A stretch of DNA of 64,000 nt from Octopus vulgaris (lineage: Eukaryota): assembly GCA_951406725.2 (NCBI GenBank), contig OX597821.1, forward strand, positions 51,398,001 to 51,462,000, in the 5' to 3' direction. Shown one piece after another: positions 4,937 to 44,795 of this stretch. The position numbers were made by a program, and so were the translations under genes. The notes under the pieces are model-generated. The model was not told the origin of the DNA. It searched no databases and worked only from the letters and a program-made list of their open reading frames with translations. Within the stretch, counting starts at the first letter, position 1. Each line of letters starts with the position of its first letter.

Positions 4937-5453
4937 GCGACGTATATTTGCCATTTAAATATGGCAAACTCCTAAGGGTGGATGCTACTGTAGTTTGTAG
5001 CCCCAGGAGGACACCTCCTCCAGCTGGCTATAGTCACACTTTTTGTGCCCTATCAGTATTTGCAAAGGGAAGCCATCCTTCCCGTCTCCAACTTATGATA
5101 TACACGGAATCGAGTTTCTGGAGTTACGATACTGGAAAAAGTATATGTATTTGTGAAGGGAACCTACTTTTCCTCGACAACTGTGATTGTCACACGCCGA
5201 TGATGGGTTAATACCCAGAAACTCGAGTCCGTGTGTATCATAAATTGGAGACGGGAAGGATGGCTTCCCTTTGCAAATACTGATAGGGAACAGAAAGTGT
5301 GTCTATAGCCAGCTGGAGGTGTCCTTCTACAAACTATAGTAGCATCCCCCCTTAGGGTTTAGTCATATTTAAATGGCAAATATACGTCACGATGTGTTGC
5401 AGCTACTGTTTATAACTCGCTCTAAGATTTATTATTGATTATATTATTGATTA
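4937..5453 (+). mobile_element. Non-autonomous PLE-type fold-back element (IR 4937-5125 / 5210-5390 + tail) in (TA)n
   Basis: Diverged ~185-bp inverted arms, unmirrored tail 5391-5453, TA-rich flanks, HHR inside. Confidence 0.8.
5191..5235 (+). ncRNA. Minimal type I hammerhead ribozyme (U4->C variant)
   Basis: CACACG-CCGATGA-TGGGT taat ACCCA-GAAA-C tcga G-TC-CGTGTG: 6-bp stem I, 5-bp stem II, palindromic CTCGAG stem III, GUC cleavage triplet (after 5229). Confidence 0.85.
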
Positions 5454-5479
5454 TATATAGAAGGAGCAATTCAACAGAA

Positions 5480-5748
5480 CAGCTTGTTCGTGAAATTAAC
5501 GTGCAAGTGGCTGAGCACAACACAGACACGTGAACCCTTAACGTAGTCCTCGGGGAGATGCAGCATGACAGAGAGTGTAACAAGGCCAGCCCTTTGAAAT
5601 ACTGGTACTACTCATTTTTGCCAGGTGAGTGGACTGGAGCAACATGAAATTAAGTGTCTTGATGAAGGACACAACGCGTCGCCCGGATTTGAGTACACGA
5701 CCTTACAATCGTGAGCTGAATGCCCTATCCACCAAGCCACGCGCCTTC
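5480..5748 (-). mobile_element. SINE family C-related copy
   Basis: Shares the head and core with 59480-59605 but has a different 3' body. Confidence 0.75.
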
Positions 5749-5767
5749 ATATATATATACATATATG

Positions 5768-41659: not shown

Positions 41660-42300
41660 TATTACTGTTCTCCTTTTTTTGAATCTACTTTCCTTAAAGG
41701 TGATTTTTAAAGATGTTAATATTTAATATAAGAATAAGGCGGCGAACTGTCAGAATTATTAGCACGCCGAGAAAACTGCTTAGCCGCCATTCGTTCGTCC
41801 GTCTTTATGTTCTGATTTTCAAATTCCGCCGAGGCCGAATTTGCTTTTCATCCTTTCGGGGTCGATAAATTATGTACCAGTGAAACACTGGGCCAATGTA
41901 ATCAACTATACCCTCCCCTAAAATTTCAGTCCTTTTGCCATAATAGAAAAGATTACTATTATTATTATTATTATTATTATTATTATTATTATTATTATTA
42001 TTATTATTATTATTATTATTTTCGTTCTTTTACATTCACTTTCCGTAATGGTGGTTTTTAAAGATGTTAATATTTAATATAAGAATAGAGCAGCGAGCTG
42101 GCGGAATCGTTAGCACGCCTGGCTAAATGCTTAGCCGTATTTCGTCCATCTTTACGTTCTGATTTTCATATTCCTCCGAGGTTCACTTCGCCATTCATCA
42201 TTTTGAGGTTGGTAAAATAAGTACCAACTCAAGAGCTGGGGTCGATGTAATCGACTTATCCCCTCCCCGTAATTGCTGGCCTTGTCCCAAAATTTGAAAC
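41660..42300 (+). repeat. Old tandem duplication (~350 bp) of flank + family A SINE, separated by (ATT)n
   Basis: TTTTTAAAGATGTTAATATTTAATATAAGAATA precedes both SINE copies (41738-41950, 42088-42300). Confidence 0.75.
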
Positions 42301-43679
42301 CTATATCTCATGTAGGGATTTAATATTATTTAATAACTTGAGGTGTATAGGTCACATTTTCTAATTAGAAAAAGAAATCAGGATGGTGAATGGTAAATAC
42401 TAAAAAAAGTTTTAAAAACACTGTTTTAAATCATTTTTTATAGCTTAACAAATGCGGATATTTTTGTTGTATGTTAAAGACGTTTTCTTTTGTGTGTGTG
42501 CCTTAAGTTATAAATTTTCATAGCATTGTTTCATTATTTTAAGGATTTTGATTATGACATGGATTTTGTTTCAATTGGAACTAATTGGACGCTCCATTTT
42601 AGGCATATACAAGAACAAAATCAATTTCCGGACACTGATTATAAGAGTTCCGGATTCTCTCGTAATCTGTACTAATTACGAACAAAAACCTCAAATTTCC
42701 GTGGTCTCTAGACTAGTTTACATATTAGTACTTTTCACAGTGCAGTATTAATAATCTTACATAATTTGTACAAATGTACATGTACCAGAATATCATTTAC
42801 TCGTTTAACGTTACCAGCTATTAGTTAGTTATGTGAAAGAGGTTTCTCAAGATCGCTTGACTTGCTGTCAATCGCTGCAAATTCTACCCAGAATCGCACC
42901 CTGCTGCCTTAAACGAGAAATACTAGATGTTGTGTTGCTAGATACGTTATACCAGAATGGTGACACCGGTACTACTTTCGGACGTAATACTATTCTATTA
43001 CGGAAGACTTTTGGCTAAATTACAACAATAATACATAAGTACCATAACAGTCTTACTCTGTATATTCTGTCTGCCAACTTTTACTAACAAGTTATTGATG
43101 AGCTGGAGGTTCAGGTACAAGACACCTATCCCAATATTTTGATCATTGTGTTTGAATCCGAAATCATGTGAATAGTTTATGGGCTTCCTAACCACAAAGC
43201 AAATCAGGAACCTTTTACTGTTTATTTATCAAATGCACGAGACATCGAAACAAATTAACATCAAATAAATATGCATAAATATATTATTATTTGTATTATT
43301 TTTCGTGAAATAAATTGCCTAATTGTATTCCATTTTATTACTGTCCAATTTTAACGAAACCGAAACAGACTGCAATTTGATAAAGCTTTTAACATGAAAA
43401 TATATCTTCGTGCATTTAATTCTGCGCGCCTGTGTATGTGTGTTAGTATGTGTACATCTGTATGTATGCGTGTTTAATGCAAACATACATCGATGTACAA
43501 TGTAATATTATGTCAGTTCCTTTCTAATTGTAAATCGTAAATATCATTTTTAAAACCACAAAATTTTTTTCTATAAAAGAACATTTTTAAGCATGAAAAA
43601 TCTTTCTTATCCACCTCTTTTTATCTCTACACACACGCAGACACACACATCCACACGTACACGCACACACATGCACTGA

Positions 43680-44795
43680 GAATAGTTAAGATATATTTTA
43701 TCAATATACTTAAAGCTTTAACCGGTTTCTCAGTTTACACTGATTTTCAAGAAGTTGGAATAGAAAAACATGTCTTATGTCGCAGCTGTGACTAGTGTTT
43801 GAAGCTTGCCCTATTGTTATAGGGAGTTCATGGCTCAAATTATTATATGTTCAGTGAATACCACAGATAAAGTTTTGATAAACAAAGAAAATACTTTCAT
43901 ACAAAAATACAAACCAAGACTTAACAAACTTTATCAATGTGCACAGAGAGCAACAATCATTCTGCCACTTAACATGAGAAACCTACGAAGCTAACACCCT
44001 AAATTTTAGCGACTGGATATACAAACGGCTCTTGTCCACTCTCCCACCAGACAGATGAAATTTGGTGTGCCATGATTGTGACTAAACATGTTTATTCAAC
44101 CGTGTTGGCCGTCATTTTGGGCGCAAAATATACTGTCACGCGACACCAACACACGAATATATCGAGAAACGTACAAAAACGTATTATAAACGTATTATAA
44201 ATCATGTGATCATTCTCTATAAACATTTGAAGCATTCAGAGTATTGATTCTTTGGACATGTTCACTCAACCGCGTCAGCCTTAACTTACGACGCCAAACG
44301 CGGGGAATCTACAAAAATTTTTAACACCTGTCATGTGACTGTCCTCTACCAATCAAATTGAACTCTTTGAAAATCAGAGTAAAGTGTGAAACTTCAAGTG
44401 CAGTTTGATCGTATTCTAACTATGCTTATGTTTATCGCGCGACTTTTTTATTCTGTTTTCATGATGTCCCGTTTCATTTCTAGTACCCGAGGCTTTGATT
44501 AATCGATAATCTCTATTGTTGGATTTTTCTGGATGATATATTTCAACTATATTGTCACCGTCTTTTATGCTATCTGAGATTTTGCAGTCTATCTGTTGTT
44601 TATTTTGGTTATTGGTGTTAAATTCTGTGTAATTTTGATTTGTTTGTTCTCTATCTTTTACTTTTTACCTTTTCTTTTCACACACGAGGAATACCTTAGA
44701 CTAGAACTGGTAGTATACCATAAGAATACTACTGGCTATTTGGGAAATCTAAGGGTGAACGAGCTCTTATACGTTCTTAACAGAACACACCTCAT
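43680..44795 (+). mobile_element. Decayed PLE 3' end with inverted HHR-like pair (43715-43756 minus; 44363-44398 plus)
   Basis: KENTFIQKYKPRLN (GIY-YIG C-terminus) at ~43880-43930. Homologous TTGAAAA-TCAG.GTAAA.TG.-GAAA motifs occur in opposite orientations. Confidence 0.6.

What the first reader, a model, noticed from the sequence alone, without database searches (positions are those of the whole stretch)
4937..44795. A set of tiny non-coding hammerhead-ribozyme fold-back elements targeting (TA)n
Seen: at least five short elements with little mutual sequence similarity (4937-5453, 16085-16294, 23971-24385, 31532-31820, 38671-39509) share one architecture with the coding PLE at 6474-9420. It is inverted repeat + unmirrored one-sided tail + TA-rich microsatellite flanks + an HHR or HHR-like motif at or near the inner end of the arms. 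Established: PLE pseudo-LTRs carry minimal type I HHRs, PLEs form inverted insertions, and some favour microsatellites. Inference: these are either extreme 5'-truncated/inverted PLE insertions whose breakpoints cluster next to the ribozyme, or self-propagating non-autonomous retrozyme/MITE-like families mobilised by PLE RT/EN. Many different families in 40 kb implies a very large genomic ribozyme load.
Basis: partly seen in the sequence, partly recalled or inferred. Interest (0 to 1): 0.85.

Follow-up and report, generated by a model that had tools for sequence, protein, structure and literature searches.

The report
Penelope fold-back stubs end at promoter
These five short hairpins are insertions of five unrelated high-copy repeats that all carry the known head-to-head footprint of Penelope-like jumping genes, and in one family thousands of arms stop at one base just behind a TATA box, likely the capped start of the element's RNA, which offers a direct handle on how these elements copy themselves.

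Summary
The architecture is real: five inverted repeats, each with a one-sided tail and TA flanks. It is not one system, and not a replicating MITE-like family. Three elements are short copies of coding Penelope-like elements (PLEs): two Hydra-type and one older Poseidon-like. Two are ORF-less tandem retrozyme units (353 and 530 nt). Inverted copy plus tail is the published PLE footprint, and junctions are made anew at each insertion. The ribozyme does not set the breakpoints: 7986 of 8408 arms of family 2 run through the predicted cut, element 4 lacks the ribozyme, and element 5 carries it mid-arm. The less ordinary result is in family 2. Of 100 position-ordered arms, 22 begin at one A and 50 within nine bases of it. 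That A lies 29 nt behind a conserved TATAAAT, and some arms carry an extra G. Three other coding families show weaker boundaries; the two retrozymes show none. I read these stubs as run-off cDNA pairs primed in the 5' repeat and copied to the capped start (inferred; no RNA ends seen). The scan noted fold-back PLE stubs and PLE-spread retrozymes before on other DNA; the start-site reading I found neither there nor in print.

The parts
4939..5118 (-). Element 1, short inverted arm of the 353-nt retrozyme unit; ends at the first 3' end site
   Evidence: 91% to a natural unit from L375
5132..5440 (+). Element 1, long arm with tail (about 5389-5440); 0.9 of a retrozyme unit
   Evidence: 84% to the unit; two 3' end sites about 45 nt apart in the family
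5191..5235 (+). Type I hammerhead of element 1, core variant U4C, palindromic stem III
   Evidence: descriptor hit; fold; 1214 exact genome matches to its 3' half
6474..7569 (-). Coding Neptune-type PLE, inverted 5'-truncated arm
   Evidence: 99% complementary to 8271-9366
7570..9420 (+). Coding Neptune-type PLE: RT thumb, CX4CxxC linker, GIY-YIG with CCHH, 3' repeat, tail 9367-9420
   Evidence: open frame, motifs; no Pfam hit
9109..9114 (+). TATA box of the coding PLE's terminal repeat; predicted start near 9138
   Evidence: sequence; 10 of 30 family arms begin at 9137-9161
9199..9246 (+). Hammerhead-like motif of the coding PLE (A9C core; this copy has U at the cut position, most sampled copies C)
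   Evidence: relaxed descriptor; 30 family copies
16085..16221 (-). Element 2, tailed arm: +1 to +137 of a Hydra PLE terminal repeat; tail 16085-16153; hammerhead 16171-16221
   Evidence: 94% to the 5' repeat of full-length parent L230; descriptor
16222..16226 (.). Element 2 junction: one base matching an extra G before +1 of the left arm, then four inserted bases
   Evidence: sequence; junction variety in 30 close copies
16227..16294 (+). Element 2, short arm: +1 to +68; hammerhead 16227-16277
23978..24134 (-). Element 3, inverted arm of an old Poseidon-like PLE end; decayed minimal hammerhead
   Evidence: 83% to L092; family motif in 30 loci
24129..24388 (+). Element 3, arm with tail of about 140 nt; begins inside the hammerhead
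   Evidence: 79% to L092
31538..31626 (-). Element 4, short inverted arm of the 530-nt ORF-less tandem unit; no hammerhead
   Evidence: unit positions 347-436
31631..31814 (+). Element 4, arm with tail of about 88 nt
   Evidence: unit positions 347-530
38671..39345 (-). Element 5, long arm with 113-nt tail (38671-38783); end of a second Hydra-type PLE
   Evidence: 97% to L182; RT and GIY-YIG frames upstream in L183-L185
38819..38910 (-). Type I hammerhead of element 5 with a long loop II
   Evidence: relaxed descriptor; the lowest-energy fold of this stretch alone is not the hammerhead fold
39344..39514 (+). Element 5, short inverted arm (core G8 mutated)

Best explanation
The five hairpins are separate insertions from five unrelated high-copy families with the head-to-head-plus-tail layout of Penelope-like elements, and each was likely made in one event by two cDNAs primed from two nearby start sites on one uncut RNA. 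Shown: each family has two fixed 3' end sites (their distance is the tail); in family 2 the two arms of a copy nearly always carry the same diagnostic bases; junctions differ between copies; arms run through the ribozyme cut. Elements 2, 3 and 5 derive from coding PLEs, elements 1 and 4 from ORF-less tandem retrozyme units that probably borrow a PLE enzyme. Inferred for the shortest class (element 2): the terminal repeat holds a TATA promoter, the RNA starts at the first base of ribozyme stem I, and reverse transcription primed at the start sites near the RNA's 5' end runs off the capped end after about 70 and 137 nt. The two run-off cDNAs are joined head to head, most often through the self-complementary AGCT at the RNA's 5' end or with short templated inserts, in a nicked (TA)n target. 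The stub lacks the TATA box and is probably a dead end. Retrozymes, whose templates are likely multimeric or circular, have no such 5' wall.
For: Parent: L230 has repeat-ORF-repeat with the tail running into the ORF; Hydra motifs RWR, DKT, CxCX5C, CxxC and CxH (definition in PMC8557442 section 11). 5' ends of the first 100 position-ordered arms: 22 at +1, 50 at +1..+9, 16 at +10..+33, 8 at -3..-42, 26 running 116 nt or more upstream. Of the 56 arms that reach +1, 22 stop there. TATAAAT-to-+1 spacer is 22 nt in 27 of 28 long arms, in at least three diverged spacer sequences. Genome-wide, of 5995 arms with +1..+17, 1372 are the perfect palindrome and 971 have G before +1, against 2794 with the parental T. 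Of 30 G-preceded arms, 3 are (TA)n followed directly by G and +1, and there is no shared leader. 7986 of 8408 arms cross the predicted cut, in line with uncut RNA being the substrate in vitro (PMC11167929). Arms share diagnostic bases in 22 of 24 fold-backs; short and long copies share the three commonest haplotypes. Similar walls away from the ribozyme: coding PLE, 10 of 30 arms at 9137-9161 behind a TATA at 9109; family 3, 12 of 30 at -102..-89 behind an initiator-like motif, none at -103..-135; family 5, 27 of 30 at reference 805-1316, none at 2-804. Retrozymes: 20 of 23 family-1 loci end at one of two sites, 8 of 23 head to head with one arm at each; 13 of 27 family-4 loci likewise; 5' ends scattered.
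Against: No RNA 5' end was observed; the start site rests on DNA only. The +1 peak is inflated by the AGCT palindrome: 13 of the 22 arms scored at +1 are perfect palindromes whose true join may lie anywhere in +1..+4, and 7 more use microhomology. About half of the 971 G cases (478 with GG) can be templated by the other arm, and many of the remaining 493 may be too. The A control is confounded: 375 arms have non-G then A before +1, mostly a likely fourth parental subfamily. +1/+2 also reads as a splice acceptor. The samples come from the start of one contig and require an exact 18-mer. The walls in the other three families rest on 30 arms each, and 17 of 30 arms of the coding PLE family begin upstream of its predicted start. 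Pfam support for the parents is weak (RVT_1 E 0.0096-0.018, GIY-YIG E 0.023, all under the curated cut-offs). The PLE partner of the two retrozymes was not identified.
Confidence: 0.7

Rival explanations
1. Ordinary random 5' truncation from priming in the 3' repeat; the family-2 hotspot arises because AGCT and stem I let a passing cDNA fold back or anneal there, with no RNA end involved.
For: 1372 of 5995 arms are the perfect AGCT palindrome; +1 coincides with the base of stem I; palindromes at inverted junctions were already described and read as self-priming (PMC3846280).
Against: Non-palindromic and foreign-DNA junctions also pile at +1..+9; a 6-nt palindrome near +33 and other 4-6 nt palindromes nearby are not hotspots; the fall-off is one-sided (50 arms in 9 nt downstream, 8 in 42 nt upstream); fixed TATA spacing; walls in other families lie 60-440 nt from the ribozyme.
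Confidence: 0.15
2. The fold-backs are self-propagating MITE- or retrozyme-like families copied whole, junction included.
For: The 40 best genome matches to element 2 are full length at 96-100%, and the perfect palindrome recurs.
Against: That list was ranked by likeness to the query. In the position-ordered sample, 38 short fold-backs give 30 junction strings; the commonest (6) spans 5 haplotypes, and one identical pair lies 2.5 kb apart. Arms co-vary within a copy. Stubs lack the TATA box.
Confidence: 0.05
3. The wall at +1 is a 3' splice site: the arms stop where an intron ends.
For: All three main subfamilies read pyrimidine-rich tract, then YAG at -1..+2; in D. virilis Penelope an intron ends at the 5' end of helix I (PMC4209133).
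Against: Spliced RNA would add a shared upstream exon or leader; 30 G-preceded arms show none. Arms keep the AG. Long copies retain the upstream sequence.
Confidence: 0.05
4. Head-to-head copies come from self-priming on an antisense template, as proposed for Adineta PLEs.
For: Proposed in PMC3846280 (discussion passage) to explain head-to-head palindromes.
Against: It does not predict two fixed 3' sites with one arm at each, nor an extra G at the sense +1; two sense start sites were mapped in vitro (PMC11167929).
Confidence: 0.05

Closest known systems
Complex insertions of EN+ Penelope-like elements: inverted 5'-truncated copy plus one-sided tail (Craig et al. 2021, PMC8557442; Arkhipova et al. 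2013, PMC3846280)
   Same: Head-to-head inverted arms, tail at one end, (TA)n bias, hammerhead in the terminal repeat, TATA/initiator-like motifs and junction palindromes noted in Adineta repeats.
   Different: Tails here are 45-140 nt, not 30-40. In family 2 about two thirds of sampled arms are confined to +1 and downstream, a sharply bounded class; in the passages read, solo repeats were put down to recombination or deletion.
Hydra clade PLEs, including Hydra-1_Obim (PMC8557442 section 11 and supplement rows)
   Same: C-terminal GIY-YIG, CxCX5C linker, DKT and RW motifs, (TA)n insertion, type I hammerhead; RT blocks resemble the printed Hydra alignment by eye.
   Different: The parents of elements 2 and 5 differ by eye from Hydra-1_Obim in protein and ribozyme. 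[quoted passage not shown]
Poseidon element of Anolis, two internal RT start sites (Frangieh et al. 2024, PMC11167929)
   Same: Tail equals the stretch between two start sites just downstream of the ribozyme, near the ORF start; ribozyme cutting is not needed.
   Different: That work did not, in the two parts of four read, describe run-off products bounded by the transcription start or their head-to-head joining.
Metazoan non-LTR retrozymes (Cervera and de la Pena 2020, PMC7229834; bioRxiv 10.64898/2026.07.22.740005)
   Same: ORF-less tandem units with a type I hammerhead, low GC, dispersed monomers and arrays; PLEs proposed as the mobiliser.
   Different: Here the insertions themselves show the PLE footprint (two 3' sites, inverted arm plus tail); 'inverted' occurs 0 times in the first paper's main text and once in the second, 'tail' 0 times in the second. 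The family-4 unit (530 nt) is longer than the 150-450 bp given.
Opposite-strand pairs of minimal hammerheads in Schistosoma (Cervera and de la Pena 2014, PMC4209133)
   Same: Pairs 100-700 bp apart on opposite strands, read as truncated PLEs; thousands of motifs per genome.
   Different: No mapping of ends or junctions in the section read.

Membership tests
EN+ PLE insertion (all five) | Inverted 5'-truncated copy joined head to head | tested here: met
EN+ PLE insertion (all five) | One-sided tail from two fixed 3' end sites | tested here: met
   family 1: 20 of 23 loci, family 4; family 2: 53 tailed and 47 untailed of 100; family 5; family 3 seen only in the ranked hits
EN+ PLE insertion (elements 2, 5) | Parent with PLE RT and C-terminal GIY-YIG in the same orientation | tested here: met
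   L225, L230, L233; L183-L185; Pfam hits weak
Poseidon-like PLE (element 3) | RT followed by GIY-YIG upstream of the repeat | tested here: inconclusive
   RT fragment about 950 nt upstream in one locus, L191; endonuclease only as a decayed trace by eye; clade name rests on recalled motifs
Hydra clade (parents of 2 and 5) | CxCX5C linker; CxxC and CxH around conserved E and N | tested here: met
   family 2 all three, family 5 CxCX5C and CxxC
Hydra clade (parent of 2) | DKT and RWK motifs; no CCHH in the endonuclease | tested here: met
   DKT and RWR; one cysteine inside the GIY-YIG core. N-terminus of the family-5 parent not recovered
Hydra clade | Placement in the Hydra clade of an RT tree | not tested
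   only compared by eye with the printed alignment
Neptune-type PLE (6474-9420) | CX2-5CxxC linker and CCHH endonuclease | tested here: met
   no tree built
Non-LTR retrozyme (elements 1, 4) | Tandem units each with a type I hammerhead | tested here: met
   352-353-nt spacing, up to 9 units; 530-534-nt dimers; family-4 motif folds as a three-way junction
Non-LTR retrozyme (elements 1, 4) | No protein-coding frame; low GC | tested here: met
   GC 0.43 and 0.33; longest ATG frames 38 aa and 103 aa, the latter antisense and not searched against a library
Non-LTR retrozyme (element 4) | Unit of 150-450 bp | tested here: not met
   530 nt; element 1 meets it at 353 nt. Element 4 is therefore retrozyme-like rather than a filed member
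Non-LTR retrozyme (elements 1, 4) | Self-cleavage and circular RNA | not testable with these tools
   only contigs of uncertain RNA status were available
MITE-like replicating fold-back | Fixed internal junction and two equivalent termini copied as a unit | tested here: not met

The most novel reading that the evidence does not exclude
Penelope-like elements routinely prime reverse transcription inside the 5' repeat of their own capped RNA and integrate the two run-off ('strong-stop'-like) cDNAs head to head. Each family thus writes its transcription start and cap into thousands of genomic palindromes, and the same twin-priming reaction inserts circular or multimeric retrozyme RNAs. Genome sequence alone would then map PLE promoters and settle that the sense RNA, uncut by the ribozyme, is the template for the inverted structures.
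Probability: 0.55. Interest if true: 0.65.

Novelty: new variant of a known kind. Interest (0 to 1): 0.48.

Why it matters
How PLEs make their tandem and inverted insertions is stated as unresolved in PMC8557442 and PMC11167929 (passages). A young family with about 8,600 arms, one sharp 5' wall and two fixed 3' sites gives exact predictions: the RNA start, the lengths of the two cDNAs (about 70 and 137 nt) and the joining step. The retrozyme insertions give anatomical support for PLEs as their mobiliser, which the cited papers propose from co-occurrence and phylogeny. In practice, such palindromes should be annotated as PLE products, not MITEs or microRNA-like hairpins. The architecture itself is published and ordinary.

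Tried and rejected
Rfam scan: the 150 listed rows of 393 were microRNA-like or other chance hits on simple repeats, none at gathering score and no hammerhead among them; the other 243 rows were not shown. RNA evidence: no RNA holder on record was listed. Laying contigs of 4 runs on the family-2 parent and 4 on a family-1 array could not show starts, ends or circles. One search did show loose ends at +1 reading into the inverted arm in one run of unknown kind, and one contig bridging tail and ORF. First idea that the PLE frame beside L077 was the parent of element 2 was dropped: no family-2 end follows it. The similarity-ranked hit lists were not used for end counts because they favour the query's own junction. 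A DNA search with tail plus one arm skipped common words and returned only 29 candidates. Automatic target-duplication scan was uninformative: 17 of 20 and 25 of 28 loci lie in (TA)n, and 1 of 6 others had 9 or more matching bases; 10-14-nt duplications were seen by eye in several ranked family-1 loci. A Helitron or MITE reading of element 2 was dropped once the coding parent was found. Cap test by counts was confounded, as described. Paper searches for the start-site reading and for inverted retrozyme insertions returned nothing that describes them in the listings; Repbase, Dfam and subscription journals could not be searched.
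Full report
Setting. The window lies on contig C8 of a 2.8-Gb assembly in 227 contigs. From size and repeat content I take it for an octopus-like genome; that is an inference.

Observation. Self-BLAST finds all five inverted repeats and the coding fold-back, and no similarity among them. Tails and TA flanks are visible in the sequence. A strict hammerhead descriptor hits element 1, both arms of element 2 and 6355-6394, against 0.025 hits per shuffle (40 shuffles). 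A relaxed one adds the coding PLE and the left arm of element 5, against 0.13 (30 shuffles). Element 3's motif is decayed. Element 4 has none. 'Ribozyme at the inner end' thus holds for elements 1, 2 and loosely 3, not for 4 or 5.

All are high-copy. First-look candidates were 2883, 1179, 1797, 2848 and 2438 for elements 1-5. Exact 18-20-mers give 1214 (family 1), 8594 (family 2), 101 (old family 3), 78 (ribozyme of family 4), 300 (family 5) and 4740 (coding PLE), with 0 for each reversed control. These are lower bounds on arms.

Elements 1 and 4 are ORF-less tandem units. Family-1 motifs recur every 352-353 nt, up to 9 in a row, and the tail runs straight into the next unit. Family 4 has a 530-nt unit whose hammerhead folds as a clean three-way junction. 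The window copy starts about 76 nt past the predicted cut. In position-ordered samples of 30 matches each, duplicates merged, 20 of 23 family-1 loci end at one of two sites about 45 nt apart, and 8 of 23 are head to head with one arm at each site. For family 4, 13 of 27 loci are paired in this way. 5' ends are scattered in both. 17 of 20 and 25 of 28 scored loci have (TA)4 or more within 30 nt (that script merged loci slightly differently). This is the PLE footprint on a retrozyme-type unit.

Elements 2, 3 and 5 have coding parents. For element 2, a search with the upstream sequence led to L230: terminal repeat, ORF starting about 45 nt after the tail, terminal repeat. RWR, DKT, CxCX5C, CxxC and CxH motifs match the Hydra definition (PMC8557442, section 11 read), and the RT blocks resemble the Hydra alignment in its supplement by eye (searched for a few terms only). 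That supplement lists one octopus Hydra, apparently a different family. For element 5, RT and GIY-YIG frames with CxCX5C lie upstream in 3 of the 8 loci extended. For element 3, an RT fragment lies upstream in 1 of 4 loci extended, and the family carries a minimal hammerhead with a palindromic stem III. Pfam support is weak throughout.

Junctions are made anew. The 30 closest copies of element 2 differ at the centre while both arms share a diagnostic base in 30 of 30. In the position-ordered set, arms match at three diagnostic sites in 22 of 24 fold-backs. 38 short fold-backs give 30 junction strings; the commonest, a perfect palindrome, occurs 6 times on 5 haplotypes, and short and long copies share the three main haplotypes. 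A fixed replicating fold-back is not supported.

The ribozyme cut does not set the ends. 8408 arms carry the 20 bases after the predicted cut and 7986 of them also carry the 5 bases before it. The 5% loss is of the size that point changes would give. This agrees with the in vitro result that uncut RNA is the main substrate (PMC11167929, parts 1-2 of 4 read).

A 5' wall in family 2. I took the first 100 listed matches of an anchor at +37..+54 (loci) and extended each against four parental references. 22 begin at +1, 50 at +1..+9, 16 at +10..+33, 8 at -3..-42 and 26 run 116 nt or more upstream (comparison limit 140). 53 have the tail and 47 do not. +1 is the A that opens stem I. A TATAAAT box precedes it by a 22-nt spacer in 27 of 28 long arms, across at least three diverged spacers, placing the box at -29, where a polymerase II TATA box usually lies (own knowledge). 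Genome-wide, 5995 arms carry +1..+17: 2794 have the parental T before it, 971 a G, and 1372 are the perfect palindrome. Among 30 arms with G but not GG before +1, 3 are pure (TA)n then G, others follow foreign or ORF DNA, and none shares a leader. An extra G is what copying a cap leaves in other retrocopies (own knowledge). Caveats: 13 of the 22 arms at +1 are palindromes whose join is ambiguous over four bases; much of the G class can be templated; the A control (375) is mostly a probable fourth subfamily; and +1/+2 also reads as a splice acceptor, for which D. virilis gives a precedent (PMC4209133, passages and section 5 read).

Other families. In the coding PLE's family, 10 of 30 arms begin at 9137-9161, just behind a TATA at 9109, about 60 nt before the ribozyme; 3 begin further downstream and 17 upstream. 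In family 3, 12 of 30 begin at -102..-89 relative to the anchor, behind an initiator-like motif at about -104, none at -103..-135, 8 further upstream and 10 downstream; this family is old and the ends are rough. In family 5, 27 of 30 begin at reference 805-1316, none at 2-804, and 3 run past; I found no clear TATA there. The wall therefore follows promoter-like sequence rather than the ribozyme, and it is absent from the two retrozymes.

Mechanism. Shown: two fixed 3' sites, one arm from each; one template per insertion; new junctions; uncut template; a wall at a TATA-spaced A. Inferred: the wall is the capped RNA start; priming in the 5' repeat gives run-off cDNAs; these are joined by microhomology or short templated inserts; the stub has no promoter and is a dead end. 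Any repeat copy that keeps the TATA box could be the source, not only full-length elements. Not shown: RNA ends, cleavage, circles, or which PLE serves the retrozymes.

Known versus new. Inverted copy plus tail and (TA)n bias are in PMC8557442 (passages). TATA/initiator motifs, junction palindromes and solo repeats are in PMC3846280 (passages). An internal promoter was mapped for D. virilis Penelope (PMC2377424, passages). Opposite-strand ribozyme pairs are in PMC4209133. Retrozymes and their proposed PLE partner are in PMC7229834 (passages) and bioRxiv 10.64898/2026.07.22.740005 (part 1 of 5 and passages; its supplements were not read). I did not find the start-bounded class or the inverted retrozyme footprint in seven searches, judged from listings and the passages named; Repbase and Dfam entries may hold them. 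Earlier notes of this scan, seen after my reading was formed, report fold-back PLE stubs in other genomes, two with sharply repeated ends, and a PLE-spread 359-nt retrozyme in this genome. Two word searches for the start-site reading found none. These notes are unchecked and are not independent support.

Verdict. A real but mostly known phenomenon, wrongly grouped as one family. Its value lies in the family-2 wall and the retrozyme footprints, which make the PLE insertion mechanism testable. Interest 0.48.

Noticed in passing
   Followed up: partly
window 24454-24600: By eye, a diverged relative of element 1's arm starting right after a TA run; not detected by BLAST with the 353-nt unit, so possibly another retrozyme family.
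   Followed up: no
window 26569-26799, minus strand: Decayed Hydra-like endonuclease fragment (tblastn E 4.8e-9 with the family-2 endonuclease).
   Followed up: partly
window 43800-44795: Frame remnant resembling the end of a PLE endonuclease (recalled motif) followed by about 0.8 kb ending in a TA run; no inverted arm and no canonical hammerhead.
   Followed up: partly
G000, one search list (e.g. C2:63123484 and 63124498): Arms with CA before +1 often occur as inverted pairs 1-5 kb apart, suggesting a fourth parental subfamily of family 2 that I did not fetch.
   Followed up: no
family 5, reference from L182, positions 2-804: No sampled arm begins in this 800-nt stretch while 27 of 30 begin downstream of it, implying a 5' leader of about 560 nt before the first RT start site; no clear TATA box.
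   Followed up: partly
L077:1744 onward: A family-2 inverted arm is joined directly to a fragment of a different, Poseidon-like PLE frame, a possible template switch between families.
   Followed up: no
L237 (C1:2210192), L217/L224 and L438: Insertions of one PLE family sit in the (TA)n flank of another (coding PLE family beside family 2, and beside family 5), so TA runs act as nesting sites.
   Followed up: no
family 4, unit positions 227-245: About 7 of 27 sampled loci have an arm beginning inside the long stem II of the ribozyme, perhaps a weak pause site.
   Followed up: no
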